From assembly GCA_964510655.1 (NCBI GenBank), contig CAZEAY010000001.1, positions 164,944 to 228,943 of the forward strand: a DNA stretch of 64,000 bases, in the 5' to 3' direction. Of this stretch, positions 47,762-64,000 are shown in pieces. A model generated the notes under the pieces. It did not search any database. It saw nothing but the letters and a program-made list of their open reading frames with translations, and was not told the DNA's origin. A program made the position numbers and the translations under genes. The DNA comes from an uncultured Candidatus Saccharibacteria bacterium (GTDB lineage Bacteria; Patescibacteriota; Minisyncoccia; Phycocordibacterales; XYD1-FULL-46-19). The stretch's first letter is position 1. Each line of letters starts with the position of its first letter.

Positions 47762-47839
47762 TGTCTTAAAAAACAACACCGGTGGATATCCCACGGTGTT
47801 GTTTTTTAAATAAGATGTTACAATATTCTCAATAACTAT

Positions 47840-48178: not shown

Positions 48179-48188
48179 AATAATTATT

Positions 48189-50675: not shown

Positions 50676-50682
50676 TAAATTA

Positions 50683-51624
50683 ATGCTATTGGATGCCTAT
50701 AAAAAAATGTTCTTTATACGAACAGTGGAAGAACAAATAGCCGCTTATTACCTTAAGAATAAAATAGCAAGCCTCATTCATTTCTGTATTGGTCAGGAAG
50801 CGATAGCTGTGGGCGTCTGTAATGCACTACAGAAAGATGACCGTGTTATAGGAAATCATCGATCACACGGACATTACCTAGCCAAAGGAGGAAATCTTAA
50901 AAAGATGGTCTGTGAATTGTTGGGAAGGGGATACGGTTCGTCGAATGGTAAGGGTGGATCTATGCACCTAATTGACACATCGGTTAATTTTATTGGATCG
51001 ACGCCAATTCTTTCGAGCGCGGTGCCTCTCTCTTGCGGTAGTGCCTTTGAACAAAAATACCACAAAAGTGATGCGGTAACGGTCGTATTCTTGGGTGACG
51101 GCGCCTTTGAGGAGGGGGGTGTCTATGAATCTCTAAATCTTGCGGCTCTTTTTAATCTACCAATACTTTTTGTTGTTGAAAATAATCTCAGATCAATTAA
51201 TACACGCCTTTCGGAACGGCGATCCTCGGACCATAATATTGAAAATATCGTTACTGGCTTTGGAGTACGATACATAAAAGCTGATGGAAATGATTATTTA
51301 GACGTGACAATAAAAACTGGAAATCTTATAACTGGGGTACGAGCGGGCAAACCTGCTCTTATTGAATGTATGACATACCGTCACTTAGCACATAGTGGGC
51401 CAGATTTTGAAGAGGAAACTCGTGAAGAAGATACCGTAGAACGGCGGAAGGAAAAAGATTCGGTAGCAAAGATGAGACGAGAAAATCTAGCTTCAGGAAT
51501 TTCAGAAGAGGAAATTATTGCTGCGGAAAATGATATTAAAAGAGCTGTTGCCGATGCTATTCTGTACGCTGAACAGGCACCATTCCCAAAAAAAGAAAGT
51601 TTATATACGGATCTTTATGTCTAA
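50683..51624 (+). CDS. thiamine-diphosphate-dependent 2-oxoacid/acetoin dehydrogenase E1 alpha-like subunit
   Basis: GQEAIAVG, GDGAFEEGGVYESLNLAALFNLPILFVVENN (TPP motif GDG...N), YRHLAHSGPD; track start 50647 is a TTG inside the -35 box. Confidence 0.75.
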   Translation: MLLDAYKKMFFIRTVEEQIAAYYLKNKIASLIHFCIGQEAIAVGVCNALQKDDRVIGNHRSHGHYLAKGGNLKKMVCELLGRGYGSSNGKGGSMHLIDTSVNFIGSTPILSSAVPLSCGSAFEQKYHKSDAVTVVFLGDGAFEEGGVYESLNLAALFNLPILFVVENNLRSINTRLSERRSSDHNIENIVTGFGVRYIKADGNDYLDVTIKTGNLITGVRAGKPALIECMTYRHLAHSGPDFEEETREEDTVERRKEKDSVAKMRRENLASGISEEEIIAAENDIKRAVADAILYAEQAPFPKKESLYTDLYV

Positions 51625-52654
51625 TAGAATTATCAAATACACCGAAGCAATTAAGGAAGCCACTGACCAAATAATGGAGATAGATAAGGATGTTGTTGTC
51701 CTTGGTCTAGAAGTCTCATATAAAAACGGTGCGGACGGAACAACCGCTGGCCTTAAGGAAAAATATCCCAACCGAATAATTGAAACACCTCAATCAGAAA
51801 ATGCTGTAACAGGAATGGCTGTTGGGGCAGCTATAACGGGTCTTCATCCTATTGTGCATCACGGCAGAGTTGAGTTTGCGATCTTTGCGGCCGATCAGAT
51901 ATTTACACAGGCGGCGAAGTGGAATTATATGTTCGGCGGCGGTCAACCGGTTCCTGTTGTATTTAGGATCAATATTGGTCGACAATGGGGTCAGGGCCCA
52001 CAACACACTCAAGCACTCTATCCGCTTTTTGGTAATGCACTTGGCCTTAAGGTTGTGATCCCCTCTACTCCGCGTATGGCGAAGGGTTTACTTATCTCTG
52101 CAGTTCGAGACAAAAATCCCGTTGTTATTTTGGAACCGCGATGGCTTTTCTCTTTAAAACAAGATGTCCCAATTGAACCCTATGATAAACCTCTAGATAA
52201 AGGGGTCGTGGTTAAAGAGGGGGCAGATCTTACGATTGTTTCTTACGGAGATGGTCTGATTGCAGCTTATGAAGCTTTAGATCTGATTAACAACCATATT
52301 GACGTAGAACTTATAGATCTTGTCTCTATAAATCCTATAGATTATGTAACTGTCTTAAAATCAGTTAAAAAAACTGGCCGGCTTATCACAATTGATACCA
52401 CCAATCACGCTTTTAGTGTTGGCTCGGAGGTTATAGCAAATATTTCAGAGCAGCAGCTATCGTTAAAGAAAGCTCCAGTTGCACTTTCCTGTCCCGATGT
52501 TCCGGTACCTACTTCAACAATACTCACTGAATCTTACTATCCAACAAAAATAGATATAGCAAATGCTGCGTTACTCCTTATGGGTAAGCCAACCATAAAT
52601 CGCGAATTAACTTTTGAAGAACTACACCTTGGCCCTAATTTTGTTATTAAATAG
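51617..52654 (+). CDS. E1 beta-like (transketolase-type pyrimidine-binding + C-terminal) subunit
   Basis: MSNR... overlaps the alpha stop by 8 nt; ETPQSENAVTGMAVGAAITGLHPIV; C-terminal transketolase-like domain. Confidence 0.8.
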   Translation: MSNRIIKYTEAIKEATDQIMEIDKDVVVLGLEVSYKNGADGTTAGLKEKYPNRIIETPQSENAVTGMAVGAAITGLHPIVHHGRVEFAIFAADQIFTQAAKWNYMFGGGQPVPVVFRINIGRQWGQGPQHTQALYPLFGNALGLKVVIPSTPRMAKGLLISAVRDKNPVVILEPRWLFSLKQDVPIEPYDKPLDKGVVVKEGADLTIVSYGDGLIAAYEALDLINNHIDVELIDLVSINPIDYVTVLKSVKKTGRLITIDTTNHAFSVGSEVIANISEQQLSLKKAPVALSCPDVPVPTSTILTESYYPTKIDIANAALLLMGKPTINRELTFEELHLGPNFVIK

Positions 52655-52656
52655 TT

Positions 52657-54228
52657 ATGATATTTTATAATAGCAAACAAAAGATTATAAGAAATAAAAA
52701 TCTTCCCAAATCCGTACGATCTGTAGTACGTATGTATCCACCTAACCAGGTCAATAGATTATTTTATGGCGGACTCCCTCATCTAGGCAACACTCTTTTG
52801 AACTCTTGGAAATCGACCGCGATACAAGAAGCAGCGAAGACATATGAGGACTACAGTCTTTCTTCAAACCTTCTTATAAAAGGTTTTAAAGATCCTACTG
52901 CGGACAAGGTAAGACTAGGAATTGGAAGTCCTGCGCGTTTCAAACCTTTTGACAAGTGTATTACTGGAATAGAACATGCCTTGGGAAATAGGATCCTTTC
53001 TGACTACCAATTAGCTGCAGGATATAGTGAGGACAAAGGACCAATCATAAAATATTTTAAAGTTACTCATGATTTAGAAATCACAGAGAATAATATTATT
53101 TTCACTCATTCAAGCACTCAGGCGCTTTCTCTTGTTATGGAGGCAATACTTGACTATGGGGATGCGGTCATTATGACAGCTCCCAATTATGGACTTTTTG
53201 CCTTTATACCGGAGAGAATTGGGGGCGAAGTTAGGCTTTTACCGCTTACCAGCCTTAATAATTGGAAGATTAACCCGAAAGAACTTAAACAGCTCATTGT
53301 TAATACAAATGATGAACTTAAGCGGGATTATGACATGAATCGTGGGAAATATATTTTCAGGCGTTCTGGTATACCGCCAAGAGTTTCGGCTTTTCTTAAT
53401 TTAAATCCGCACAACCCGACGGGTGTTGTGTATAGTGCAAAGGATAGATTGTTGTTGACAGAAATTTCCAATGTTTGCAATCGGGCTGGCGTATTTATTA
53501 TTGATGATTTGGCTTATTTTGGCCTAGAGTTCGACAGAAATTCCACTGCCTTGCCCGTTTGTAGCTTGGAGGATAATTTTAATAATACAATAACAATGTA
53601 TTCTCTTTCTAAATCTTATGGGTTAGCTGGCTTAAGATCAGGTATAATCATAGCTAACGAGGTGATTATCTCCCTGATAAGAGATAAAATATTTCAAAGT
53701 TTGGATTCATTGTCTTTATTGCAATCGGCCGCTATGAGCGCAATTTTCTTAACGGAAAATAATGCTATTTTTGAAAGAGAGAAGTATTTTACCGATATTA
53801 CCAGAAAATATTATGAAAGATATATCTTTACAAAAGCCGTTATTATGGGAGTTGATAAAATTAATAATGAAGAAAAAATACTACTAGACAAAATCATTAA
53901 GAATAACAAGCTGAATTTTAATATAAAAAAATCTATGAGCGGCATCAAAGATGTTAGTATCGCTCTTGAACCGCAGTCTGGTTTTTTTATAATTTTGGAT
54001 TTAAGCAAAATACTCGGAAAATCATATAAAGGATTCAAGATAGTTGATGATGTAACTTTGTTAAAATTTTTGTATACATCAAGCAATATTAAATTATTGA
54101 CCGGCAGAGCATTTTGTTGGCCTAACCAAAGCCAGCTTACTGCCAGGGTAACTATCGCGTTTGATAAATATGAAGATTTATTGAAATCTTTTTTACGCCT
54201 CAAATCATCTATAGAGCTATTAGTATGA
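52657..54228 (+). CDS. PLP-dependent class I/II aminotransferase (long, 523 aa)
   Basis: NPHNPTGVVYS, YSLSKSYGLAGLRSGII (PLP-Lys block); about 100-aa N-terminal extension. Confidence 0.75.
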   Translation: MIFYNSKQKIIRNKNLPKSVRSVVRMYPPNQVNRLFYGGLPHLGNTLLNSWKSTAIQEAAKTYEDYSLSSNLLIKGFKDPTADKVRLGIGSPARFKPFDKCITGIEHALGNRILSDYQLAAGYSEDKGPIIKYFKVTHDLEITENNIIFTHSSTQALSLVMEAILDYGDAVIMTAPNYGLFAFIPERIGGEVRLLPLTSLNNWKINPKELKQLIVNTNDELKRDYDMNRGKYIFRRSGIPPRVSAFLNLNPHNPTGVVYSAKDRLLLTEISNVCNRAGVFIIDDLAYFGLEFDRNSTALPVCSLEDNFNNTITMYSLSKSYGLAGLRSGIIIANEVIISLIRDKIFQSLDSLSLLQSAAMSAIFLTENNAIFEREKYFTDITRKYYERYIFTKAVIMGVDKINNEEKILLDKIIKNNKLNFNIKKSMSGIKDVSIALEPQSGFFIILDLSKILGKSYKGFKIVDDVTLLKFLYTSSNIKLLTGRAFCWPNQSQLTARVTIAFDKYEDLLKSFLRLKSSIELLV

Positions 54229-55100
54229 AAATATATATTGCATCATCAGAAGAGCATGTGGGAAAAATTAAAGAAGATATTTATATTCGCGACGCTTATA
54301 GAGATAAGGGATTTTTTTGTGAAATCTTTACACTGGAAGACATCATAAGGATATCAAAACCATCTGATGTGGTAATTTTAAAAAGCATCTGGGGGTATCA
54401 TTTACATTACCGAGAATTTCTAAAGAAAATATCAATACTCAAAGAAAAGAAGATTAAATTAATAAACGGCTATGAATTTATTTTTTGGAATATTGATAAG
54501 TATAAATACTTATCCGAATTAAAACATCTAAACGTGGTCCCAACAGTGCTTCTTAATTTCAAAAGTGCCGAGACTGCATCTGAGATTAGAAATAAAATAT
54601 CGCAGGCAAATAAAAAGTTGAATACAGATACCTTAGTTATTAAACCTTGTATTTCAGAAAGCGGTTATTTAACTTTTAAATACGATAAAACTAAAAACAA
54701 TAAGGCTACTATTGCAATGCTGAAAAAGAATAAACATTTTAACTTTGTCGCGCAGCCTTACCGGCCGGATGTCTTGACGGGAGAGCTGTCTGTAATCATA
54801 ATTAACGGCATACCCTTGTATGGCATCAAGAGATTCTCAGGAATTTTCACTGAAAAGAAAGACTTGGAGTATATTGATCAACAAAAAATTCCTAAACAAA
54901 TTACGGATCAAGTGAGACTATTACTTAATTTTTTTGTTAATAAATTTAAGTCTTTGCCAAAAATTTGTAGAGTGGATTTTGTAAAACATGACTTAAAGTA
55001 TGAACTTTTGGAAATTGAGTTGATTGACCCTGATTTATTTTTTAGATTTCTTCCAGAGAGGGTATTACATAAATGTCTGGCAGGACTTATTGGTATTTAG
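54225..55100 (+). CDS. ATP-grasp-fold ligase (RimK/glutathione-synthetase-like)
   Basis: LVIKPCISESGYLTF, RVDFVKHDLKYELLEIELIDPD; ATGA overlap with the aminotransferase stop. Confidence 0.5.
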   Translation: MKIYIASSEEHVGKIKEDIYIRDAYRDKGFFCEIFTLEDIIRISKPSDVVILKSIWGYHLHYREFLKKISILKEKKIKLINGYEFIFWNIDKYKYLSELKHLNVVPTVLLNFKSAETASEIRNKISQANKKLNTDTLVIKPCISESGYLTFKYDKTKNNKATIAMLKKNKHFNFVAQPYRPDVLTGELSVIIINGIPLYGIKRFSGIFTEKKDLEYIDQQKIPKQITDQVRLLLNFFVNKFKSLPKICRVDFVKHDLKYELLEIELIDPDLFFRFLPERVLHKCLAGLIGI

Positions 55101-55167
55101 AAAAGATAAATTTTATGCATAATCATAAATTTATTGAAATCAAAAATTATAAGCCCGCAATTAATAA

Positions 55168-55698
55168 ATGATAAATCTTATGAAAAAAAAAGTATCAGAA
55201 ATAAAAAATGAATCAGATACTTCTTCGGACGTGAAAAAACAAATTTTTAGAAAAGGAGTTTCTGCTCTGATCTTAAATAAGAATCAGGAAGTTCTCTTGG
55301 TTAATCTCAGATCATTCGAGACTAAATTTTATGCTGTTCCGGGGGGAGGGATAGAAGCGGGTGAAACGTTAGACGATGCGGCTTACAGGGAAATCAAGGA
55401 GGAATTAGGTATTTCTAAAAAACTTCTTGAGTCAGTTGGTATGTCTACTAGTCCAATTAAGCTCTTATTTAAAACAGGGAAACTTAAAAGGGATGGGGTT
55501 GAATATGATGGCATGGAGAGATTCTTTTTTGGGTTTCACTTTTTAGGAAAAGATGACTACATAACCCTGCAATCCGATGAAATAAGAGGTTATAAATGGG
55601 TTACATTTAGTAACCTCAAAGATCATCTTCTTTTCGAAAATCAACTAGAGGATACTACTGAAAAATTACTAGAATTATTCCCCCATTTGAAGAGATGA
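55168..55698 (+). CDS. Nudix hydrolase
   Basis: Nudix box GGIEAGETLDDAAYREIKEELGI. Confidence 0.8.
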   Translation: MINLMKKKVSEIKNESDTSSDVKKQIFRKGVSALILNKNQEVLLVNLRSFETKFYAVPGGGIEAGETLDDAAYREIKEELGISKKLLESVGMSTSPIKLLFKTGKLKRDGVEYDGMERFFFGFHFLGKDDYITLQSDEIRGYKWVTFSNLKDHLLFENQLEDTTEKLLELFPHLKR

Positions 55699-55710
55699 AG
55701 ATATTATTTT

Positions 55711-56955
55711 ATGGATTATAAAGCTCCCCTTAATAAACCAACCCTTCTTTTTGTTGAGGAGTATGAGAGTACCCTATCTAGAAGTGTCATCTCGAACCAG
55801 ACAATCACATTAGTTTTATTGCGATTTAAGCAAAATATGTTATTTAGTCAGGAACACTTGGATAGGAGCTCTCATGTTCCCTGCTTTGTTTTCGACAAAA
55901 CGAAGCCGATAGAAAGTGAAACAAAGAAATTTAAAAAATTCTGTCGAGAAAGTGGGATTGTGGTTAATTATTTCTATAATGACTCTGAATATAACCAGGA
56001 GGTGATTCAGAAATTTGCCTCGCTGCTTGAATTTCCGGGTGCGCTGAATGAATATCAGGCCCGCTGTGTAAGAGATAAGGCCGTAATGAAAGATAAATTG
56101 CAAGAACTTGGATATCGGACAATGTCTTATCAAGAGCTGGGTTCTGTTGATGATGCGTTGGACTTTGCTGAAAAAAATGGCGGTTTTCCTTTTATTGTTA
56201 AGTGGCGCAGAGGACTTTCATCTAAAGAAGTATACCGGATTGAAAGCAGGGGGCAATTAGAAGCCCTTCAGCTTGATTATTCTACCGGGCGATTCATTGC
56301 AGAAACATATTGCCCATACTTGATCTGGAGTTTTGATTCACTAGTACAAGATGGGAAAGTTGTGGGAACTTTTCTTACTTGGCTTCCATACACCAATCTT
56401 AGCTTCGCAGAAAAGAAGGAGAAGTTCGCTCAAATCACAGTTGCAGAACAGCCGAAGAGTATTAGATTTGATGGAAGAAAAATAACTCAGGATATTATTA
56501 ATGGGATTGGCTTGGAAAATGGATACATAGAAGTCGAAGTGTTTGTTGATCCTTACGGGTCCCCTACAGTGTGCGAAATTGCGTGGCGAACCCCCGGAGA
56601 GCACATGTTGTCAAATCAAAGCCTAGCCTTTGGAGTAGATGTCTGCTCTTTATTAGTCGATATTATGGTTGGCAAAAAAATCCAACCGCTTCCTCTAAAT
56701 GGTCGACAGTGCGTCGGTGATATGTTTTTACCACTGACCAGTGGTACTGTCACTCAAATTTCTTCCTATGAGGATATAAGCGGTCTCGATGGAGTAATCA
56801 ATGGCGACGTTGTGTATAAACAAGGAGATGTTATCGAGTCAAAAAGACAATATACGAGTTGTGCCGGCTGGGTCCAAATCATCGGACAAAGTGCGGATGA
56901 GGTCTTAAATAGGATGTTAAGGGTATATGAGAAGTTTAAAATTGAAACGACCTAA
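55711..56955 (+). CDS. ATP-grasp-domain enzyme (carboxylate-amine ligase-like) with unknown N-terminal domain
   Basis: RDKAVMKDKLQELGYRTMSYQELGSVDDALDFAEKNGGFPFIVKWRRGLSSKEVYRIES. Confidence 0.55.
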   Translation: MDYKAPLNKPTLLFVEEYESTLSRSVISNQTITLVLLRFKQNMLFSQEHLDRSSHVPCFVFDKTKPIESETKKFKKFCRESGIVVNYFYNDSEYNQEVIQKFASLLEFPGALNEYQARCVRDKAVMKDKLQELGYRTMSYQELGSVDDALDFAEKNGGFPFIVKWRRGLSSKEVYRIESRGQLEALQLDYSTGRFIAETYCPYLIWSFDSLVQDGKVVGTFLTWLPYTNLSFAEKKEKFAQITVAEQPKSIRFDGRKITQDIINGIGLENGYIEVEVFVDPYGSPTVCEIAWRTPGEHMLSNQSLAFGVDVCSLLVDIMVGKKIQPLPLNGRQCVGDMFLPLTSGTVTQISSYEDISGLDGVINGDVVYKQGDVIESKRQYTSCAGWVQIIGQSADEVLNRMLRVYEKFKIETT

Positions 56956-57010
56956 GCAACTTAGTTCCATCTGAGACCAGCACTATGAAAAAAGTACAAT
57001 AAAACCAAGT

Positions 57011-57901
57011 ATGAAAAAATTCAATAAAATAGCTATTATTGATACAGTTAAAATTGCTGAGGAGGCAAAGGAGCAAATACAGCTTTACTCAAGTGAACCG
57101 GTTATTTATCCTGACCACGACACAAAAGATGAGAAGGAAATTTCTCAGAGAATTAATGACGCAGATGCTGCGTTGGGAAATTGGCATTCAAAAATAAATG
57201 CTTCAATCTTAAAACATACTCCAAATCTTAAATATATTGGAATTTGTGGAACAAGTTTAGCGAATATTGATCTTGAGGCGATAAGAAAACATAACATAGT
57301 TATCAAAAACGTCACAGATTATGGCGATCAAAGTACGGCTGAATATATTTTTGCGCAACTACTCAATCTCTTTAGGGGGTTCGGTAAACACATGTGGAGA
57401 ACCGAACCTAGTGAGCTTTACACAAAAACAATTGGAATCGTCGGTCTAGGAGCAACAGGGCAGCAAGTTGCCGGGATGGCTTTGGGATTTAAAATGAAAG
57501 TTTTATATTACAGTAAAACCAGAAAGGCGGAGTGGGAGAAGAAAGGAGTTCAATATTTTCCCATTGATGATTTACTAAGGAAGAGCGATATCATATCTAT
57601 GCACGTTCCTAAAAATACTAAGATTATTGGAAAAGATGAATTGGAAAAAATCGGTAATGGCAAAATTATAACCGATACTTGCTTAGGAAACATTTATAAA
57701 GATATTGATGCAGTCCGACTGTGGCTTGGAAATGAAAATAATTTTTTAATAAGAGATCATCATCCTGAAATAAAAGAAAAACTCGGTGATTTGAGTAGAT
57801 TTATATACACAGATGCAATAGCCGGAATAACAGCAGATACCCGAGAAAGGCTAGGTGCGAAGGTTATAGATAATATCAAAGCCTATCTAAAAGACAATTA
57901 A
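57011..57901 (+). CDS. D-isomer-specific 2-hydroxyacid dehydrogenase family (NAD-binding)
   Basis: TIGIVGLGATGQQVAGMALGFKMKVLYYSK (GxGxxG Rossmann), DIISMHVPKN. Confidence 0.75.
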   Translation: MKKFNKIAIIDTVKIAEEAKEQIQLYSSEPVIYPDHDTKDEKEISQRINDADAALGNWHSKINASILKHTPNLKYIGICGTSLANIDLEAIRKHNIVIKNVTDYGDQSTAEYIFAQLLNLFRGFGKHMWRTEPSELYTKTIGIVGLGATGQQVAGMALGFKMKVLYYSKTRKAEWEKKGVQYFPIDDLLRKSDIISMHVPKNTKIIGKDELEKIGNGKIITDTCLGNIYKDIDAVRLWLGNENNFLIRDHHPEIKEKLGDLSRFIYTDAIAGITADTRERLGAKVIDNIKAYLKDN

Positions 57902-57929
57902 CTCGTGCTGAAAGTGTGGGCCACAACTT

Positions 57930-57967
57930 AGAACTAAAAATACCCAAGCAAGAATCTGCTTGGGTAT
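57930..57967 (-). terminator. intrinsic terminator for the NDK-like gene
   Basis: acccaagcag-attc-ttgcttgggt then T-run on the minus strand. Confidence 0.6.
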
Positions 57968-58401
57968 CATAGCATGCGGAAGACCCCAACGTCTTTTTCC
58001 GCTTCCATCATGTTCCTAGATCGATGAATGATATTTTGATAATATCTGACACCATCGATCATAAGGGGTTTTCTCCCGCCGAATTTAAAGCGTATACTTT
58101 CGGGGGAGCAATCGACAGGATCAAGTTCTGTGCCTGTGATTCGAAGAAGCGTACTAATAGCGTTTTTCCCAACTACAAGCCCTGCTTCAACGAGTCCATC
58201 CACAAGAGGTTTGAAAATTGCATCTCTGTACCTCTCAGGCAGGTCAGAATAAATGATTTCCAATGCCCAACGTGGCATCTCAAGACTCTTGCTACCTGAG
58301 ATAGTTAGGCCACCAGCCTCGATCATTGCTCTGACTTCTTCACGAAATACCAAACCATGGGGCTTGATAATGTAAAAACTAGTTTCCAGAGTACTGTCCA
58401 T
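57967..58401 (-). CDS. nucleoside-diphosphate-kinase-like protein (divergent, GC-rich)
   Basis: YIIKPHGL (like IIKPDG), PLVDGLVEAGLVVG, NIIHRSRN (NDK active-site N..H.S pattern); AGGAG SD; consensus promoter upstream. Confidence 0.55.
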   Translation of the reverse strand: MDSTLETSFYIIKPHGLVFREEVRAMIEAGGLTISGSKSLEMPRWALEIIYSDLPERYRDAIFKPLVDGLVEAGLVVGKNAISTLLRITGTELDPVDCSPESIRFKFGGRKPLMIDGVRYYQNIIHRSRNMMEAEKDVGVFRML

Positions 58402-58466
58402 GAACCCAGCTCCTATTTAAAAAACTGAGTTGTGCTTGTTTTAAACACAAACTACATCCTTTCTTT

Positions 58467-58495
58467 TTTATATACCATATTTCACATATTGTCAA
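58467..58495 (-). promoter_or_regulatory. sigma70 promoter TTGACA-17-TATAAA for the NDK-like gene
   Basis: minus-strand TTGACAatatgtgaaatatggtaTATAAA. Confidence 0.55.
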
Positions 58496-58538
58496 TATTA
58501 CACCTAAAGCACACCTGGAGTAGTTTGAGAAAAAATAC

Positions 58539-59183
58539 TCACACTAACTTAAAGTAATCCAAGCTTGTTTTTATGAAACTTTCAGTGTCAGACTGTTTTA
58601 GCCAGATATTTTTGATTTCCTGTAATTTACCTTTTAGGTCGGGATAGAAAAGTAATTCTTCTGCTCCAATCGCTTTTTGGATTGACGGTAAATTTAGAAA
58701 AATCACATTAAATATCTCCGACAACTCCCAAAGCTTGTCGTCATTTCTAATTCCTAATTTCTCACAAAAATCATAAAAGGCAAAGTGGGTTAATTCATGG
58801 GCAATAACCTCTTTTCGCATATCATATGAACGCTTGTAATAGACCTGGAAGCTCTTAGTTTCTAGATAGCGTGGGTTGCAGTTAAAAATAGACAAGTAAC
58901 AAGTATAGTTTTCTTTACTATAATCTTTGCCAAAATATTTTTTAAGTTCAAAAAATAGCGGCTCTTTTATTTCATTGAAACAATTTCCAGTATCTTCTAA
59001 AACTTTCTCTAATTCATCCTTTTTTGCAATATAAAAATCATCTATGTACTCTACATGATTTTCTTTCTTAATATTTGGATGATCATCACGTATTTTTTTA
59101 CCAAAATCTGCACCACCAATAACAGCATCACAAAAAGCCAAATATACTTCTTTATCTAATTTTTTATTTAATTCTATTTCCAT
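58539..59183 (-). CDS. hypothetical HExxH-motif protein (putative Zn-metallohydrolase)
   Basis: VIAHELTHFAF; similar size and motif context to the 62586 gene. Confidence 0.4.
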   Translation of the reverse strand: MEIELNKKLDKEVYLAFCDAVIGGADFGKKIRDDHPNIKKENHVEYIDDFYIAKKDELEKVLEDTGNCFNEIKEPLFFELKKYFGKDYSKENYTCYLSIFNCNPRYLETKSFQVYYKRSYDMRKEVIAHELTHFAFYDFCEKLGIRNDDKLWELSEIFNVIFLNLPSIQKAIGAEELLFYPDLKGKLQEIKNIWLKQSDTESFIKTSLDYFKLV

Positions 59184-59185
59184 AT

Positions 59186-59779
59186 TTAAAAGATAACATC
59201 AAAAAGTTCAGTATTAGAAACTTCTGACCCATAAGTAACTGCCTTCATCCTATTTTCTATCGCGAAATGACAATTTAAACCGCTGTCGTCTATAACCAAA
59301 ATATCTTCTGGAGCAATAGCGGGGTTTAATTTTTGTGTTTCTTGGATGGCAAATTGCCAAAAGGCGTCGTCTGGCTTGGCCACCCCGGCTTCGGACGAGT
59401 TTATCACCAAGTCTGGCAAATCGGCTATTTGATATTTTTCCATTAACACACCGAGGGCACTGGAGTTATTTGTCGTATAAACAATCAATTTGCCAGCCTG
59501 TTTCGCCTTTAATAAAAGATCATACAGAGCATTGTTTCTACTCTCTGAATCAAATAATTCAGAACAGTATTTATTCCAAATTTCCCCAGATACACCTTTT
59601 TCTTTTAAGAAATCATCAATTTCTTTATCTGTTCTATCTTTAGTCTGTAAGTATTTAAAAATTTCACCCACAAGCTCTTTCTTGAGTCCAAATTCTTTTT
59701 CATATTTTTCTTTTATCGCTGATGTATTATTTACAACAAGCACACCACCAATATCAACAAATAAAACTTTAATGGACAT
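59186..59779 (-). CDS. HAD-superfamily hydrolase
   Basis: motif I VLFVDIGGVL (DxG), motif IV ILVIDDSGLN. Confidence 0.65.
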   Translation of the reverse strand: MSIKVLFVDIGGVLVVNNTSAIKEKYEKEFGLKKELVGEIFKYLQTKDRTDKEIDDFLKEKGVSGEIWNKYCSELFDSESRNNALYDLLLKAKQAGKLIVYTTNNSSALGVLMEKYQIADLPDLVINSSEAGVAKPDDAFWQFAIQETQKLNPAIAPEDILVIDDSGLNCHFAIENRMKAVTYGSEVSNTELFDVIF

Positions 59780-59905
59780 AGTTATTATAATTCACAAAAT
59801 CTTCTTAAACATATTCAGAGAGATTTTAATTAGGAATAAAGCTATGGGCATTATAGATTAAGGACCATTTGATTACAACACAGAATATAGTAGACTGGAA
59901 TTACT

Positions 59906-60319
59906 ATGGAAAAAAGAGTCAGGGCTGTAATTATTCAGAATGGTTCTGTTCTACTGATTCATCGGGTCAAACCAGACCGAGAATACTGGGTTTTCCCCGG
60001 AGGCGGCCTTAAGAAAACCGATGCTACACCTCAGGATGGCCTGAAACGTGAGTGTCTAGAGGAGCTCGGAGTTACTATTGAGGTCGGAGATCTCTTTAAG
60101 GAAGAGATATATGATTTTTCTCTCGAAAAACAGATTGAGCTCTTCTATCTCTGCAGGATTACTGGTGGGAAAATTGGAACTGGCACTGGTCCAGAGTTTA
60201 CCCGTGATCCGGGGCAATCTGGTACCTACGAACCTCAATGGATCTTAATCAGCGATCTCAACAGCAAGAATGTCCAGCCGACCACAATAAGAAATATGGT
60301 GGTAAGTGTAAGTTCATAA
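59906..60319 (+). CDS. Nudix hydrolase
   Basis: WVFPGGGLKKTDATPQDGLKRECLEELGV (Nudix-box variant with RECLEELGV). Confidence 0.7.
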   Translation: MEKRVRAVIIQNGSVLLIHRVKPDREYWVFPGGGLKKTDATPQDGLKRECLEELGVTIEVGDLFKEEIYDFSLEKQIELFYLCRITGGKIGTGTGPEFTRDPGQSGTYEPQWILISDLNSKNVQPTTIRNMVVSVSS

Positions 60320-60330
60320 AAATAATTAAC

Positions 60331-61311
60331 ATGAAAAAAATATATCCAAAAAAATTACAGGCGGGTGATGAGATAAGAATAGTTGCTCCCTCACATTCTA
60401 TATCAATTATTTCAGAGGCAAACCGTGAAATCGCTAATAAACGTCTTTCTGATTTAGGCTTTAAAGTAACGTTTGGTAAAAACGTAGAAGAAAGTGATGA
60501 ATTTCATTCTTCATCCATTAAATCTCGGGTCGCAGACTTACACAAAGCCTTTTTGGATAAAAAGGTAAAAGGAATCTTTACTGTCATTGGCGGATTTAAC
60601 TGTAATCAGCTTTTAAAATATATTGATTGGAAAATAATCAAAAACAATCCTAAAGTATTTATTGGATATTCAGACACAACTGCGTTACAAAATGCCATTT
60701 TTGCCAAAACTGGTTTAATTACATATTCTGGACCCGCCTGGTCTACCTTTGGTCAAAAACTACATTTCGATTACACACTAGACTATTTCAAGAAATGCTT
60801 AATGTCTGACGAGGTCGTTGAAATTAAGCCGGCTAAAGAATGGAGCGACGACGCTTGGTATAAAGATCAAGATAATCGAGTATTGATAAAAAATGACGGC
60901 TGGCTCATCATAAATAAAGGGCAAGCTTCGGGAACAATCCTGGGAGCTAATCTTTGTACCTTAAACCTACTCCAAGGAACAGAGTATTTCCCAAATTTAA
61001 AAGATTCAGTTTTGTTCATAGAAGATGATGAAGAATCGAAGTCTGGAAATTTTGACCGAGACTTACAATCTCTCATTCACCAGCCATCATTCAAAGGGGT
61101 AAAAGGAATTGTAATCGGACGATTCCAAAATGCGAGTAAAATGACGAACGATAAGTTGATAAAAATAATAAAAACCAAAGCCGAATTAAAAAATATTCCC
61201 GTAATTACCAATGTGGATTTTGGTCACACCAGCCCAATCATCACTTTCCCAATTGGTGGAGAGGTAAAGATCGATACTAAAAAGAAGAGTATTGTAATTA
61301 CCAAACACTAA
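60331..61311 (+). CDS. LD-carboxypeptidase / MccF-like peptidase S66
   Basis: GDEIRIVAPS, nucleophile block FIGYSDTTAL, C-terminal GHTSP; ATG at 60331 (track start 60238 overlaps the Nudix gene). Confidence 0.8.
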   Translation: MKKIYPKKLQAGDEIRIVAPSHSISIISEANREIANKRLSDLGFKVTFGKNVEESDEFHSSSIKSRVADLHKAFLDKKVKGIFTVIGGFNCNQLLKYIDWKIIKNNPKVFIGYSDTTALQNAIFAKTGLITYSGPAWSTFGQKLHFDYTLDYFKKCLMSDEVVEIKPAKEWSDDAWYKDQDNRVLIKNDGWLIINKGQASGTILGANLCTLNLLQGTEYFPNLKDSVLFIEDDEESKSGNFDRDLQSLIHQPSFKGVKGIVIGRFQNASKMTNDKLIKIIKTKAELKNIPVITNVDFGHTSPIITFPIGGEVKIDTKKKSIVITKH

Positions 61312-61313
61312 AA

Positions 61314-61952
61314 ATGGATAGGAATCTGATATATTTAGCCGGTGGAGGAGGGGAACAGCAAACCTTTTTATTTGATGATGTTTATCTAAAAAGCCTACCT
61401 AAAAACGGCAAAATTTTATATTTACCAATTGCTCTTCGTGGTCATAAATTATATGAAGATGCTCCGAAGTGGCTCAGGGACTTAATAAATTCACACAACC
61501 GACAAGATATAGAGATTGAAACATGGACAGAAATAGAAAATAAAAACTTTTCTGATTTACAAGATTTTGACAGTATCTTCATTGGTGGTGGAAACACTTG
61601 GAGTTTACTCAAAGAAATCAGAGAATCTGACTTTGATAAACTACTTATAGAATTTCTGGCGACAAGAGGATCAATTTATGGAGGCAGTGCTGGAGCAATT
61701 ATTTTGGGTAAAAAAATTACTAGCCCAGATGAAAATGAAGTTGAATGGAAAGATGACAACGGCCTTGACCTGCTGGGAGATTATTCGGTCTTCTGCCATT
61801 ACAAAACTGATCAAGAAAATGAGTGTCAAAAATGGTCTGAGGACAATAAACTACCAGTAATCTGCCTATCGGAAGAAACAGGAAGTGTGTTTGATGAAGG
61901 AAGGTTTGAAATTATTGGAGATGGGCAAGGAATGATAATTAAAACAACATAA
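61314..61952 (+). CDS. peptidase S51 family (dipeptidase E / cyanophycinase-like)
   Basis: IYLAGGGG, FIGGGNTWSLL, GGSAGAIILG (S51 Ser block). Confidence 0.75.
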   Translation: MDRNLIYLAGGGGEQQTFLFDDVYLKSLPKNGKILYLPIALRGHKLYEDAPKWLRDLINSHNRQDIEIETWTEIENKNFSDLQDFDSIFIGGGNTWSLLKEIRESDFDKLLIEFLATRGSIYGGSAGAIILGKKITSPDENEVEWKDDNGLDLLGDYSVFCHYKTDQENECQKWSEDNKLPVICLSEETGSVFDEGRFEIIGDGQGMIIKTT

Positions 61953-62519
61953 TTATTTATTTTTTCCCAAATACTCGGCGAGCTTAGACCAAGTATCTAA
62001 TTTTTCACTCCAGAAATTTAACATTTCTTCATCAGAAATCTCAGTCGCAATTTGAGAAAAACCTTCAGGAATAAAAACTTGATTAATAGGGGAATATCCC
62101 ACTGGTCCCACAGAAAGAGGCATTTTACCAAAAGCGGACGAACAAAAAACAACCGGCTCTTGTCCGGGAACACAATAAGCTAAACTACTGCGCACCTCAA
62201 TTTTTCGATTTTCTTTTCCAGACATTAGGAGCAAGTAATCTTCCGCCGATAACCAATTATTAGTGAATTTAATAAATGGTCCCGGAAAGCCATTTAGGGC
62301 TTCAATGTAATAGCCAGCATCTTCCACAATTACAGGAGCGTTTAATTCATTAGCCGCTAGTTTAGCCGAGAAAGCGGAAATCTCATTCACATCAGTAGAT
62401 TGAATCTCGTGAAGGTTCTCAATGTTTTTATGAGTGAGATTTATTCCAAAAGCACCAAGTGCCTTTTGGGCAACTTCAAATTTTCGACTGTTGCTGGTGA
62501 CAAAAATTAAATCAGCCAT
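61953..62519 (-). CDS. non-canonical purine NTP pyrophosphatase (Ham1/RdgB/ITPase)
   Basis: LIFVTSNSRKFEVAQ, EDAGYYIEALNGFPGPFIKF. Confidence 0.85.
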   Translation of the reverse strand: MADLIFVTSNSRKFEVAQKALGAFGINLTHKNIENLHEIQSTDVNEISAFSAKLAANELNAPVIVEDAGYYIEALNGFPGPFIKFTNNWLSAEDYLLLMSGKENRKIEVRSSLAYCVPGQEPVVFCSSAFGKMPLSVGPVGYSPINQVFIPEGFSQIATEISDEEMLNFWSEKLDTWSKLAEYLGKNK

Positions 62520-62585
62520 GTTTTTATCTCTATTATGAAAGACGTATAAATTCTAATAAATTAGGCATATAATATCATTTAATTA

Positions 62586-63269
62586 GTGAAACATAAACCA
62601 AGTATGGAAACTTTTGAACAAAAAGAGGGTGAGCCAACAAAATTAGACTTTGAATTTAGCGTCAAGCAAGATACCGACCGAATAAAAAACACCCTACAAA
62701 AAGCGGGGTGGTATCAAAAAAATGGTTATAAACCCAAGATGCCAAAAGACCTTTCATTAGAAGAAATGGGGGACTTATCTGAAGAAGAAGTTAAAAAAAT
62801 AATTGCTGATGAATTTGATGGGGAGGAATATAAATCAATTATTAGTAAGATTGAAGAAGACTGGGAAAAATTTGAACCACAACTACGCATTGGATTAGCT
62901 AATTTGGGAATAGACATAGACACTCGGTATCAAATAATGTTAACAAGATACGGGACCGGCGGGAGTTATAATAATAATTGGAATCCTAAGGGGGTGACAG
63001 TAAACATTGCCGAAAAACAAGAAGTTTCTGTTATTGCAATAATCTGTCATGAAATAGTCCACCTATGTATTCAGGATTTGATTGAAAAATATAACGTGTC
63101 GCACTGGTCAAAAGAGCATATTGTAGATTTGATAATAAAAAGTATTTTTGCAGATGAAAGGATGCAGAAAATCGATCCAATCCTTGCATCCCAAATTGAC
63201 GAAATATTTGGAAGAGATAAAACAAATATAGAGGATATAATTAAAAAAGTTGGTAATTTAAAACAATGA
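62586..63269 (+). CDS. hypothetical HExxH-motif protein (putative Zn-metallohydrolase)
   Basis: VIAIICHEIVHL; acidic N-terminus. Confidence 0.4.
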   Translation: MKHKPSMETFEQKEGEPTKLDFEFSVKQDTDRIKNTLQKAGWYQKNGYKPKMPKDLSLEEMGDLSEEEVKKIIADEFDGEEYKSIISKIEEDWEKFEPQLRIGLANLGIDIDTRYQIMLTRYGTGGSYNNNWNPKGVTVNIAEKQEVSVIAIICHEIVHLCIQDLIEKYNVSHWSKEHIVDLIIKSIFADERMQKIDPILASQIDEIFGRDKTNIEDIIKKVGNLKQ

Positions 63270-63808
63270 AAATAATAGTCGGATCGGTTAGTGACCGGAA
63301 AATTAAAACAGTGGAGAAGGTGGTCAGGCAACTGGTTGGCGAATCTAGCGACCTCAACGTTTGTGGCTATGCCGCAAATTCTGGTGTTCCCAATACTCCT
63401 TATGACAAACAAACATACACTGGAGCCCATAATCGATCCAAGGAAAGCCGATTAGGAGCCGGAGAAGCCGATTATTATATTGGGCTAGAAAGTGGTCTAG
63501 TAGAGCGTTATGGTCATTTATACGAAGAGGCTTGGGCTTGTATAATAGACAAAAACGGTCAAGATTTTTTTGGTTATTCTAGTGGTCTAAAAGTACCAGA
63601 CTATGTTTTAAAAAGAATGAAAGAATGTGAGTTAGAACATTGTGATGTAATGTATGAGCTAGAAAAAGAAAATAATAAACTTCGCAACAGTGACACCTGG
63701 CATAGTTATTCTGGTGGACTAATATTGCGAGAGATCAGTTTAGAAGAAGCTGTCCGCAATGCATTTATCCAGATCATCGCTCCGGAGAATAGTTTCTATC
63801 AAAAATAA
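63266..63808 (+). CDS. YjjX-like (DUF84) inosine/xanthosine triphosphatase
   Basis: MKIIVGSVSDRKIKTVEKVVRQLV, GYAANSGVPNTPYDKQTYTGAHNRS, ADYYIGLESGL resemble the YjjX pattern; ATGA overlap with the previous gene. Confidence 0.65.
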   Translation: MKIIVGSVSDRKIKTVEKVVRQLVGESSDLNVCGYAANSGVPNTPYDKQTYTGAHNRSKESRLGAGEADYYIGLESGLVERYGHLYEEAWACIIDKNGQDFFGYSSGLKVPDYVLKRMKECELEHCDVMYELEKENNKLRNSDTWHSYSGGLILREISLEEAVRNAFIQIIAPENSFYQK

Positions 63809-63939
63809 GAGATATAAACTCTTTTTTATTTCGCCCATCGGAGAGATAGAACCAACAAAAAAAAATGATTTGACATTTGAATCAACAATGGTATAGTTAT
63901 TTGCGGACAATTCTTATTTTGACGAGGAGGTGCCTGAAG

Positions 63940-64000
63940 ATGAAACACCTAAGCCGTGCAGAAAAAGAAGCCTTGATATTGACAGATGTAAGGAATGCAC
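63940..64000 (+). CDS. 5' end of an unidentified gene (partial, runs off the window)
   Basis: GAGGAGGTG SD 6 nt before ATGAAACACCTAAGC... Confidence 0.3.
   Translation, partial: MKHLSRAEKEALILTDVRNA

What the first reader, a model, noticed from the sequence alone, without database searches (positions are those of the whole stretch)
57967..63808. Dense nucleotide-housecleaning and peptidase neighbourhood, including an MccF-like peptidase
Within 6 kb there are nine genes: an NDK-like gene, an HExxH protein, a HAD hydrolase, a Nudix hydrolase, an S66 LD-carboxypeptidase/MccF-like peptidase, an S51 peptidase, a Ham1/RdgB ITPase, a second HExxH protein and a YjjX-like ITP/XTPase. Two independent non-canonical NTP pyrophosphatases (Ham1 and YjjX) plus Nudix and HAD enzymes suggest intense sanitation or processing of unusual nucleotides. 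S66/MccF enzymes are known to hydrolyse aminoacyl-nucleotide antibiotics of the microcin C type. This could be a detox/immunity locus linked to the adjacent biosynthetic-looking operon. It could equally be a salvage module for imported peptidoglycan peptides and nucleotides in an auxotrophic symbiont.
Basis: inference. Interest (0 to 1): 0.5.

Follow-up and report, generated by a model that had tools for sequence, protein, structure and literature searches.

The report
Shuffled small-hydrolase gene patch, CPR bacterium
Nine small enzyme genes really are packed into 5.8 kb of an ultra-small (CPR/Patescibacteria) bacterial genome, but related genomes shuffle, replace or lack them, so this looks like a flexible patch of ordinary clean-up and peptide-cutting enzymes, not one dedicated antibiotic-immunity system.

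Summary
Nine ORFs fill 94% of 57967-63808. Both fold as minimal zincins and are only remote homologues of each other.

The nine genes form at least four transcription units and are not conserved as a block.
- The NDK-like gene belongs to the neighbouring aminotransferase/ATP-grasp/Nudix/L-amino-acid-ligase operon. It sits convergent to that operon in 16 of 23 metagenome loci.
- In the closest relatives, different small genes follow NDK.
- The patch lies in a roughly 21-kb flexible region between dnaK-dnaJ and a class-I tRNA-synthetase gene.

The S66 enzyme is not housekeeping LdcA. It belongs to the uncharacterised BA_5613/Lmo1638 clade, sister to true MccF. Its catalytic triad is intact and it has the MccF-type loop, but it lacks the three other E. 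coli MccF positions I compared (N220, R246, K247).

This clade is spread across CPR, DPANN archaea and Bacillaceae. In CPR/DPANN it recurrently sits in strings of small hydrolase genes, with Nudix about five-fold enriched nearby (p about 0.03). That is a recurring theme without a fixed system. No MccB-like producer gene is present. Substrates remain unknown.

The parts
57939..57968 (.). Hairpin with a 13-bp stem between the convergent 2-hydroxyacid dehydrogenase and NDK-like genes. It looks like a shared terminator.
   Evidence: It is the only terminator-like site found in 57800-64000.
57967..58401 (-). Divergent NDK-like gene (144 aa). It belongs functionally to the upstream operon block (50647-57901), not to the hydrolase patch.
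   Evidence: Pfam NDK scores 44.7 bits. PDB NDKs score only about 29 bits, but the NxxH catalytic His region aligns ('QNIIHRS' against 'KNVIHAS'). The gene is convergent to the LAL operon in L008, L086-L088 and 16 of 23 metagenome loci.
58539..59183 (-). HEx1, a 214-aa minimal zincin-fold protein ('IAHELTHF') with no curated family. It starts 2 nt after the HAD stop.
59186..59779 (-). HAD-superfamily hydrolase (197 aa) with an atypical motif I, 'VDIGGV'. It is the first gene of the minus-strand unit HAD->HEx1.
   Evidence: Pfam Hydrolase scores 38.7 bits. NCBIfam gives only weak sub-cut-off hits to HAD-IA and nucleotidase models. Motif I is read from the sequence. A promoter-like site lies at 59878-59850 on the minus strand. 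The same HAD-HEx1 pair is on Logan contig L001.
59906..60319 (+). Nudix hydrolase (137 aa), the first gene of the likely tri-cistron Nudix->S66->S51.
   Evidence: Pfam NUDIX scores 52.8 bits. The 'RECLEELGV' Nudix-box core is visible in the sequence. The gap to S66 is 11 nt.
60331..61311 (+). S66 serine peptidase (326 aa) of the BA_5613/Lmo1638 'MccF-like' clade, with catalytic triad S114/E231/H299.
   Evidence: Both S66 domains match in Pfam. PDB ranking. Alignment with genuine E. coli MccF and LdcA. NJ tree. Scan of 80 genomes.
61314..61952 (+). S51-family peptidase or class-I amidotransferase-like protein (212 aa). It starts 2 nt after the S66 stop.
   Evidence: Pfam Peptidase_S51 scores 69.1 bits. 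The PepE equivalog scores only 37.5 against a cut-off of 156. The best PDB match is the uncharacterised Lmo0363 at 34.5 bits, with PepE at 23.5.
61953..62519 (-). Ham1/RdgB-family non-canonical purine NTP pyrophosphatase (188 aa), monocistronic. It abuts the S51 stop with no gap.
   Evidence: Pfam Ham1p_like scores 73.3 bits. NCBIfam XTP/dITP diphosphatase scores 114.1 against a cut-off of 203.
62586..63269 (+). HEx2, a minimal gluzincin-like protein ('ICHEIVHL'). The recorded product of 221 aa is consistent with a start at 62604. It overlaps the YjjX start by 4 nt.
63266..63808 (+). YjjX-like NTPase_I-T (DUF84) inosine/xanthosine triphosphatase-family protein (180 aa).
   Evidence: Pfam NTPase_I-T scores 97.7 bits. 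NCBIfam equivalogs score 61.9-72.7, below their cut-offs.

Best explanation
The stretch is the right-hand part of a roughly 21-kb flexible region in a Paceibacteria-type CPR genome. That region lies between dnaK-dnaJ (40.2-43.3 kb) and a class-I Trp/Tyr-type tRNA-synthetase gene about 1.3 kb past the window end.

It is not one system. It holds separate small transcription units:
- HAD->HEx1 (minus strand).
- Nudix->S66->S51 (plus strand, gaps of 11 and 2 nt).
- Ham1 alone (minus strand).
- HEx2->YjjX (plus strand, 4-nt overlap).

The NDK-like gene is the conserved convergent partner of the neighbouring operon: aminotransferase, ATP-grasp, Nudix, L-amino-acid ligase, plus or minus 2-hydroxyacid dehydrogenase and E1 alpha/beta.

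Inferred mechanism: each enzyme acts on its own on small soluble molecules that an auxotrophic episymbiont imports or damages.
- Ham1 and the YjjX-like enzyme remove deaminated purine NTPs (ITP/XTP).
- Nudix and HAD trim other nucleotide derivatives.
- S66, S51 and the two zincins cut short peptides or peptide-like amides.

S66 is a catalytically intact Ser-His-Glu enzyme of the uncharacterised BA_5613/Lmo1638 clade. It is sister to MccF and has the MccF-type loop, but its pocket residues differ, so its substrate is probably neither murein tetrapeptide nor aspartyl-adenylate exactly.

Shown: gene calls, family membership, lack of block synteny, the NDK-operon link, the placement of S66, and the recurrence of S66 among Nudix-rich strings of small genes. 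Inferred: all substrates, and the independence of the units.
For: HMM assignments.

Gene spacing and strands. The single strong terminator lies between 2HADH and NDK.

Close relatives L086 and L087 (operon proteins 63-92% identical) keep E1a..2HADH plus the convergent NDK. Beyond NDK they carry a different Nudix, a CPT-like kinase and an AAA_18 kinase. L087 has an IS481-type transposase there.

L008 (about 80% identical) places S66 on the other side of the operon.

Partners are not conserved:
- HEx1 orthologues (77-80% identical) sit next to PRK-type kinases or small ORFs and YchF, not HAD.
- HEx2 relatives are never next to YjjX.
- S51 lies within 10 kb of S66 in only 2 of 50 loci.

Regional synteny: DnaK and DnaJ homologues lie upstream of S66 in L003 and L004, and the 46.3-kb gene/SET/HisK group lies near S66 in L003, L005 and L008. 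A tRNA-synt_1b gene lies downstream, and likewise about 1.8 kb downstream of the HEx2 relative in L093.

Many CPR loci show analogous strings that are not orthologous. Examples are L020 (Ham1-HAD-GNAT-Nudix-S66-CYTH) and L014 (Nudix-S66-Nudix-Nudix).

NUDIX is found in 10 of 150 ORFs near S66 against 2 of 150 far from it.

Per-gene GC ranges from 30 to 45%.

Patescibacteria are reported to carry many genomic islands and to exchange genes mostly within the phylum (PMC12455944).
Against: - Tight coupling (gaps of 11 and 2 nt, and a 4-nt overlap) suggests that at least Nudix-S66-S51 and HEx2-YjjX are co-expressed and could cooperate.
- The recurrent co-location of S66 with Nudix, ABC exporters (10 of 50 loci), GNAT and zincin-like genes hints at a shared task and not mere co-residence.
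- S66 lies within 10 kb of the ligase operon in 3 of about 11 loci with adequate flanks.
- Only pieces of about 21 kb of related genomes could be read. The other genes may be linked elsewhere in those genomes.
Confidence: 0.6

Rival explanations
1. Detoxification or immunity module. The MccF-like S66, helped by Nudix, zincins and S51, destroys aminoacyl- or peptidyl-nucleotide 'Trojan-horse' toxins. The toxin could be environmental, or it could be the product of the adjacent aminotransferase/ATP-grasp/Nudix/LAL/NDK operon, which would make this self-immunity.
For: - S66 is sister to experimentally proven MccF enzymes and far from LdcA. It keeps the triad and the loop that LdcA lacks, with a conserved Trp176.
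- MccF cleaves the aminoacyl-nucleotide amide, stand-alone homologues confer resistance, and LdcA cannot (PMC8323819).
- Predicted immunity genes of mcc-like clusters include zincins, S66 and GNATs (PMC4010828). CPR loci combine S66 with zincin-like, GNAT, Nudix and ABC-exporter genes.
- S66 flanks the operon in the window, L008 and L104, the last together with an ABC exporter.
- The clade occurs in DPANN archaea, with one contig confirmed by an adjacent archaeal Nre gene. By general knowledge DPANN archaea lack murein.
Against: - No MccB/ThiF homologue occurs in the window or in any of about 120 loci.
- The E. coli MccF positions N220, R246 and K247 are C209, E234 and E235 here, and W186 aligns with K178.
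- Most operon loci (L086, L087, L097, L107-L109, L116) have no S66 nearby.
- Only 1 of 50 S66 loci has the operon.
- The window and L008 share ancestry, so they are not independent.
- The Nudix genes next to S66 are different Nudix lineages.
- In Bacillaceae the orthologue has unrelated metabolic neighbours.
Confidence: 0.2
2. Salvage module. S66 acts as an LD-carboxypeptidase on imported murein tetrapeptides. S51 and the zincins finish peptide breakdown. Ham1, YjjX, Nudix and HAD condition imported nucleotides.
For: - There are four peptidase-type and four nucleotide-hydrolase-type genes.
- S66 is the LD-carboxypeptidase family, and the LdcA equivalog is its only NCBIfam hit.
- An S9 peptidase and alpha/beta hydrolases lie in the same flexible region.
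Against: - S66 scores only 77 and 55 bits to solved LdcA structures, against 391 to the MccF-like clade.
- It carries the loop insertion that LdcA lacks.
- Close homologues occur in archaeal MAGs, which by general knowledge have no murein.
- No murein-recycling or peptide-transport gene is adjacent.
- The partners are not conserved.
Confidence: 0.14
3. Anti-phage defence or counter-defence island that uses Nudix and other nucleotide-degrading enzymes.
For: The region is variable. The Nudix protein matches the PADLOC candidate PDC-S07 at 51.8 bits. Resolvase/recombinase and restriction-modification genes occur near S66 in some loci.
Against: No other PADLOC system protein matches. No integrase, toxin or nuclease effector lies in the stretch. 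The PDC-S07 hit is generic Nudix similarity.
Confidence: 0.03

Closest known systems
BA_5613 (PDB 4E5S/5FD8) and Lmo1638 (4H1H/4INJ), structural-genomics 'MccF-like' S66 peptidases of Bacillus anthracis and Listeria
   Same: They are the best PDB matches, at 391 and 378 bits over the full length. Related Bacillaceae genome sequences are 54-59% identical. They show the same 'SWY.DQ.NR'-type loop and the acidic stretch after the catalytic Glu.
   Different: No substrate is known for this clade, and nothing was found in the literature search. One table note says that loss of lmo1638 alters listerial accumulation in the liver. The Bacillaceae genes have unrelated neighbours: aminotransferase class III, GDSL, MsrAB, CoA-transferase and M20.
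MccF, the microcin C immunity peptidase (E. coli plasmid mcc operon; B. anthracis stand-alone MccF)
   Same: It is S66 with the same Ser-His-Glu triad (S118/E243/H311 against S114/E231/H299). It has an extra loop that LdcA lacks. It forms the sister clade in the tree.
   Different: Identity is only about 32%. W186, the adenine-stacking residue, aligns with K178, though a conserved W176 lies two residues away. N220 becomes C209, and R246/K247 become E234/E235. There is no mccABCDE-type context.
LdcA, the murein tetrapeptide LD-carboxypeptidase (E. coli, P. aeruginosa PA5198)
   Same: It shares the S66 fold and triad, and it is the only NCBIfam model hit.
   Different: The score of 122.6 bits is far below the equivalog cut-off of 378. 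Solved LdcA structures score 77 and 55 bits. LdcA lacks the loop of about 25 residues. In the NJ tree rooted on LdcA, it is separated from the MccF and MccF-like clades by the longest branch.
House-cleaning NTP pyrophosphatases RdgB/Ham1 and YjjX (both present in E. coli, from general knowledge)
   Same: Both families are present, 747 nt apart, with clear Pfam matches.
   Different: Both score below the NCBIfam equivalog cut-offs. They lie on opposite strands in different transcription units. No relative examined had the two together.
Minimal zincins and gluzincins (M1 aminopeptidase catalytic domain, YbeY, Wss1/WLM, thermolysin)
Predicted immunity gene sets of mcc-like clusters (zincin, S66 and GNAT plus an efflux pump; PMC4010828)
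   Same: CPR loci combine S66 with zincin-like, GNAT and ABC-exporter genes.
   Different: There is no MccA/MccB producer part. The combinations vary and are not orthologous.

Membership tests
Peptidase S66 (LD-carboxypeptidase/MccF superfamily) | Both S66 domains and the Ser-His-Glu catalytic triad | tested here: met
   PF02016 scores 121.8 and PF17676 scores 102.7 bits. S114, E231 and H299 align with E. coli MccF S118, E243 and H311.
MccF (microcin C immunity peptidase) | Closer to proven MccF than to LdcA | tested here: met
   185 and 144 bits to B. anthracis and E. coli MccF, against 77 and 55 to LdcA. Sister clade in the NJ tree.
MccF (microcin C immunity peptidase) | Loop carrying the adenine-stacking Trp (E. 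coli W186) | tested here: inconclusive
   The loop is present, whereas LdcA lacks it. W186 aligns with K178, and a clade-conserved W176-Y177 lies two residues upstream. Alignment within the loop is uncertain.
MccF (microcin C immunity peptidase) | E. coli MccF positions N220, R246 and K247 (chosen from memory as pocket residues; not checked in a paper) | tested here: not met
   They are C209, E234 and E235 in the window protein and its clade.
MccF (microcin C immunity peptidase) | Genomic link to an MccB (ThiF-type adenylyltransferase) cluster. This is not obligatory, since stand-alone homologues exist. | tested here: not met
   tblastn with E. coli MccB, MccC and MccE found no MccB or MccC in the window or in about 120 loci.
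MccF (microcin C immunity peptidase) | Hydrolysis of aminoacyl-adenylate analogues, or resistance to McC | not testable with these tools
   This needs an enzyme assay or heterologous expression.
LdcA (muramoyltetrapeptide carboxypeptidase) | Reaches the NCBIfam equivalog cut-off, with LdcA-type architecture lacking the loop insertion | tested here: not met
   NF008424 scores 122.6 against a cut-off of 378. The insertion is present.
Ham1/RdgB ITPase | Pfam Ham1p_like at gathering score; equivalog-level match | tested here: inconclusive
   Pfam is met, at 73.3 against 22.5. The equivalogs are not met, at 114.1 against 203 and 89.6 against 145.35.
YjjX / NTPase_I-T (ITP/XTPase) | Pfam NTPase_I-T at gathering score; equivalog-level match | tested here: inconclusive
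   Pfam is met, at 97.7 against 25. TIGR00258 scores 61.9 against a cut-off of 117.1.
Nucleoside diphosphate kinase | NDK fold match and the catalytic His in the NxxH motif | tested here: met
   Pfam scores 44.7 against 27. 'QNIIHRS' aligns with 'KNVIHAS' of 3VVT. The equivalog scores only 38.3 against 155, so this is a divergent subfamily.
HAD phosphatase | Motif I DxDx(T/V), with the second Asp as acid/base | tested here: not met
   The sequence reads VDIGGV, with Gly at the +2 position. The Pfam Hydrolase match itself is met, at 38.7 against 26.4.
Peptidase S51 (PepE/cyanophycinase) | Pfam S51 at gathering score; PepE equivalog | tested here: inconclusive
   Pfam scores 69.1 against 23.9. 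PepE scores 37.5 against 156. PDB PepE scores 23.5 bits.
Zincin metallohydrolases (HEx1, HEx2) | Invariant HExxH, a downstream Glu ligand and the zincin fold | tested here: met
HEx1 and HEx2 as paralogues | Detectable homology between the two | tested here: inconclusive
Single conserved gene cluster or 'system' | Co-occurrence of the gene set in related genomes | tested here: not met
   Only NDK with the operon is a conserved linkage. S66 with Nudix recurs at superfamily level only.
Known anti-phage defence systems (PADLOC) | HMM match to system proteins | tested here: not met
   The only hits are a generic Nudix match (PDC-S07, 51.8 bits) and marginal ones.

The most novel reading that the evidence does not exclude
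The MccF-like S66 clade, together with the Nudix, zincin-like, GNAT and ABC-exporter genes that travel with it in CPR and DPANN genomes, is a horizontally exchanged toolkit against aminoacyl- or peptidyl-nucleotide toxins. In this lineage it serves as self-immunity or processing for an unknown nucleotide-linked peptide made by the adjacent conserved aminotransferase/ATP-grasp/Nudix/L-amino-acid-ligase/NDK operon. That would be a natural-product pathway in organisms thought to have almost no secondary metabolism.
Probability: 0.12. Interest if true: 0.65.

Novelty: new member of a known kind. Interest (0 to 1): 0.3.

Why it matters
Mostly this is a clarification. The eye-catching density of clean-up enzymes is real, but it is not a dedicated locus, so it should not be annotated as a microcin-type immunity or murein-salvage system.

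Three by-products may help people who work on ultra-small symbionts:
1. An S66 clade that is neither LdcA nor classical MccF. It is very conserved and shared between CPR bacteria, DPANN archaea and Bacillaceae, and structures are already solved (4E5S, 4H1H), yet its substrate is unknown.
2. Two uncharacterised minimal zincin families. One (HEx1) is 63-82% identical among the 120 closest homologues listed; the named ones are CPR/Parcubacteria-group MAG proteins.
3. A conserved ligase operon with its own divergent NDK-like gene, which deserves a finding of its own.

Tried and rejected
- **Pairwise paralogy of the two HExxH proteins.** No signal. Only profile and fold evidence exists.
- **HAD-HEx1 as a conserved pair.** Rejected. 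HEx1 orthologues follow PRK-type kinases or small ORFs.
- **HEx2-YjjX as a conserved pair.** Rejected.
- **S66-S51 as a conserved pair.** Found in 2 of 50 loci only.
- **Search for an McC-type producer (MccB, MccC).** Nothing found. One weak hit resembling the MccE C-terminal domain occurred in L020.
- **Defence-system HMMs.** Nothing specific.
- **Bacillaceae neighbours of the S66 orthologue as a functional clue.** The neighbours were unrelated metabolic genes.
- **Literature on BA_5613/Lmo1638.** No functional study found.
- **Nudix-box regular expression for the distance-decay test.** It was too strict, giving only 18 hits, although the trend was the same. It was replaced by the Pfam census.
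- **Exact look-up of the window's own contig.** Only short Logan contigs were returned. The NCBI contig of 394,723 bp is on record but unnamed, so the organism's name was not obtained.
- **afdb50 fold search.** The library was unavailable.
- **Rfam and tRNA scans.** Nothing lies in the stretch.
- **GC composition.** It is mosaic (30-45% per gene) but not diagnostic.

Full report

Yes. The ORF listing finds the nine ORFs at the stated coordinates. They cover 94% of 57967-63808.

Pfam confirms seven labels at or above gathering score: NDK (44.7 bits), HAD (38.7), NUDIX (52.8), Peptidase_S66 N- and C-domains (121.8 and 102.7), Peptidase_S51 (69.1), Ham1p_like (73.3) and NTPase_I-T/DUF84 (97.7).

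NCBIfam agrees on family, but every equivalog score is far below its cut-off. The names therefore hold at family level only.

The S66 gene starts at 60331 (326 aa). That product is the one on record, while the ORF beginning at 60238 overlaps the Nudix gene.

No tRNA or Rfam element lies in the stretch.

**2. Organisation**

The genes fall into separate units:
- HAD (59779-59186) is followed 2 nt later by HEx1 (59183-58539) on the minus strand. NDK follows after a 137-nt gap.
- Nudix, S66 and S51 follow each other on the plus strand, with gaps of 11 and 2 nt.
- Ham1 is alone on the minus strand and abuts the S51 stop.
- HEx2 overlaps YjjX by 4 nt on the plus strand.

The only terminator-like hairpin (13-bp stem, 57939-57968) lies between the upstream 2-hydroxyacid dehydrogenase and the convergent NDK. 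This gives at least four transcription units, not one operon.

**3. Whose genome?**

The S66 protein's best genomic matches (78-82%) are Patescibacteria/Paceibacterota MAGs. HEx1's relatives are Vogel-, Kaiser-, Taylor- and Azambacteria proteins. The exact proteins are on record on one unnamed NCBI contig of 394,723 bp. This is a Parcubacteria/Paceibacteria-type CPR bacterium.

**4. Is the neighbourhood conserved?**

It is not conserved as a block.

The closest relatives were found through the NDK-like protein (92% identity; L086, L087). They keep E1-alpha, E1-beta, aminotransferase, ATP-grasp, Nudix, LAL and 2-hydroxyacid dehydrogenase (63-91% identical) and the convergent NDK. Beyond NDK they carry a different Nudix, a CPT-like kinase and an AAA_18 kinase. 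L087 also has an IS481-type transposase there.

A metagenome scan with the LAL protein gave 23 loci. NDK is convergent right after LAL or 2HADH in 16 of them, and most of the others are truncated. The NDK-like gene therefore belongs to that operon. It keeps the NxxH catalytic-His region but is very divergent, at about 29 bits to solved NDKs.

In L008 (about 80% identity) S66 lies on the other side of the same operon, preceded by Nudix, a HEx1-family zincin and a CPT-like kinase, and followed by GrpB.

Other pairings do not hold up:
- HEx1 orthologues (77-80%) lie after PRK-type kinases or small ORFs and before YchF.
- HEx2 relatives lie next to unknown ORFs, once inside the ribosomal S10 operon, and never beside YjjX.
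- S51 lies within 10 kb of S66 in only 2 of 50 loci.

The wider frame is as follows. DnaK and DnaJ (40.2-43.3 kb) are followed by alpha/beta-hydrolase, S9 peptidase, SET, histidine kinase, the operon, the patch, two small ORFs and then a class-I tRNA synthetase. DnaK and DnaJ homologues precede S66 in L003 and L004. The SET/HisK group accompanies S66 in L003, L005 and L008. The patch is thus part of a roughly 21-kb flexible region whose most constant resident is S66.

**5. A recurring theme**

Around the S66 gene of 50 other CPR, DPANN and other non-Bacillaceae loci, the recurrent neighbours within 4 kb are ABC exporters (10 loci), Nudix (8), histidine phosphatase (5), CYTH (4), ThrRS (4), ASCH, AAA_18 kinases and HEx1-like zincins (3 each).

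Gene maps show co-directional strings such as these:
- L020: Ham1-HAD-GNAT-Nudix-S66-CYTH...Nudix.
- L014: Nudix-S66-Nudix-Nudix-x-Nudix.
- L005: ASCH-Nudix-hydrolase-GNAT-HisPhos-S66-Nudix-zincin.

A Pfam census found NUDIX in 10 of 150 ORFs within 2.5 kb of S66, against 2 of 150 at 5.5 kb or more (Fisher p=0.035). A motif count gave the same trend (p=0.033). The loci are not independent.

A Nudix gene directly abuts S66 on the same strand in L005, L014, L020 and L049, as it does in the window. These Nudix proteins belong to different lineages, at 24-37% identity to either window Nudix.

**6. The S66 enzyme**

PDB ranking:

| Match | Bits |
|---|---|
| BA_5613 'MccF-like' | 391 |
| Lmo1638 | 378 |
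| B. anthracis MccF | 185 |
| E. coli MccF | 144 |
| E. coli LdcA | 77 |
| PA5198 LdcA | 55 |

I retrieved genuine E. coli MccF from an mcc operon plasmid, where the S66 gene lies divergent to the GNAT, methyltransferase, MFS and ThiF genes. I also retrieved E. coli LdcA.

In the alignment the triad is conserved (S114/E231/H299). The extra loop that LdcA lacks is present. E. coli MccF W186 (the adenine-stacking residue) aligns with K178, with a clade-conserved W176 two residues away. N220, R246 and K247 correspond to C209, E234 and E235.

An NJ tree rooted on LdcA places the clade as sister to MccF. A Bacillaceae branch and a CPR/DPANN/TM6 branch separate within it. Most archaeal sequences group together inside the CPR/DPANN branch, and one is nested among CPR sequences. 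A Roizmanbacteria and a Nomurabacteria sequence are nearly identical.

One archaeal contig was verified by an adjacent archaeal Nre gene.

No functional study of this clade was found. One table note links lmo1638 loss to liver accumulation.

Verdict on S66: it works like an S66 Ser-His-Glu carboxypeptidase or amidase, closer to MccF than to LdcA. It is not a demonstrated member of either functional family.

**7. The HExxH proteins**

HEx1 has 312 homologues, the 120 listed being 63-82% identical. HExxH, a downstream Glu and four Cys are invariant.

HEx2 has only 3 word-index hits but 553 cluster representatives by full HMMER. The invariant residues are G117, H149, E150, H153, K170 and E171, with 17 residues between H153 and E171.

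They are remote homologues within the zincin fold, not recent paralogues. A HEx2-like gene sits 280 nt upstream of the HEx1 orthologue in L085. HEx1-family genes lie near S66 in L003, L005 and L008.

**8. Link to the adjacent operon**

S66 lies within 10 kb of the operon in the window, in L008 and in L104. In L104 it is accompanied by an ABC exporter and a Nudix. That is 3 of about 11 loci with usable flanks, or 2 of about 8 independent lineages (p about 0.02 against an assumed 3% background).

Most operon loci lack S66, and only 1 of 50 S66 loci has the operon. No MccB-like gene exists anywhere in the data. The LAL and ATP-grasp proteins have almost no solved relatives. The link is possible but unproven.

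**9. Conclusion**

The best-supported reading (about 0.6) is a flexible patch of independently acting small hydrolases in a CPR genome, with NDK reassigned to the neighbouring operon. The detox/immunity reading (about 0.2) and the murein/nucleotide salvage reading (about 0.14) remain open, because the substrate of this S66 clade is unknown. A defence-island reading is unlikely.

Interest is modest. The gene families are known, and the apparent 'system' dissolves on comparison. What remains are an uncharacterised, widely exchanged MccF-like clade, two unnamed zincin families and a conserved ligase operon.

Noticed in passing
window 50647-58401; also L008, L086, L087, L097-L119: A conserved, uncharacterised operon: aminotransferase (523 aa), ATP-grasp (weak DcsG_N/GSH-S match), Nudix and an L-amino-acid-ligase-type ATP-grasp, with or without 2-hydroxyacid dehydrogenase and E1 alpha/beta. 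A divergent NDK-like gene almost always sits convergent to it. A histidine kinase or an ABC exporter is often nearby. It looks like a small-molecule or peptide pathway in CPR bacteria.
   Followed up: partly
L091 8001-10190 and L092 122-2311: A HEx2-family zincin gene plus three unknown ORFs (198, 135 and 166 aa) is inserted between rplB (L2) and rpsS (S19) inside the otherwise canonical ribosomal S10 operon of a Paceibacterota genome.
   Followed up: no
window 58539-59183 (HEx1 family, alignment A2): HEx1 is 63-82% identical among the 120 closest homologues listed (named ones are CPR/Parcubacteria-group MAGs). Besides HExxH it has four invariant cysteines (C68, C95, C102, C140), which hints at a second metal site or a redox role. 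In other genomes its orthologues sit beside YchF and PRK-type kinases.
   Followed up: partly
L022, L023, L025, L029, L031, L032, L044, L045 (S66 genes): S66 proteins 61-65% identical to the window's occur in DPANN archaeal MAGs. In L023 the gene lies about 100 nt from an archaeal Nre gene. Most archaeal sequences group together within the CPR/DPANN branch of the tree. A Roizmanbacteria and a Nomurabacteria S66 are nearly identical. Both points suggest cross-domain and cross-class transfer.
   Followed up: partly
L004, L020, L023, L024 (next to S66); 10 of 50 S66 loci: A threonyl-tRNA synthetase gene lies within 4 kb of S66 in four unrelated loci, and an ABC exporter (ABC_membrane plus ABC_tran) in ten. 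This is curious, given that MccF-type enzymes counter tRNA-synthetase inhibitors. It may be chance.
   Followed up: no
plasmid NC_006277.2 40388-41377 (hit H5): The Agrobacterium radiobacter plasmid NC_006277.2 (44,420 bp) carries an S66 peptidase 32.7% identical to the window's. From memory this is pAgK84, the agrocin 84 producer plasmid; that identification was not checked.
   Followed up: no
L087 1175-2047: An IS481-type (rve) transposase is inserted between NDK and the adjacent Nudix gene in a close relative. This marks the junction as a site of rearrangement.
   Followed up: no
window 59186-59779: Motif I of the HAD protein reads VDIGGV. The second Asp of the usual DxDx(T/V) is missing, so it may not be a standard phosphatase or nucleotidase.
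   Followed up: no
L020 7021-14633: A Nealsonbacteria locus carries a co-directional string: a GNAT resembling the MccE C-terminal domain, Ham1, HAD, a second GNAT, Nudix, S66, CYTH, three unknown ORFs and another Nudix. It is the closest analogue of the window's patch found, but it is built from non-orthologous members.
   Followed up: partly
window 57967-63808: Per-gene GC is mosaic: NDK 44%, Nudix 45%, HEx1 30% and HEx2 34%, against a window mean of 38%. This fits a patchwork origin but is not diagnostic for such short genes.
   Followed up: no
window 43639-48779: The same flexible region also holds an alpha/beta hydrolase, an S9 prolyl-oligopeptidase-family gene, two ORFs with no Pfam match and a SET-domain protein upstream of the histidine kinase.
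   Followed up: no
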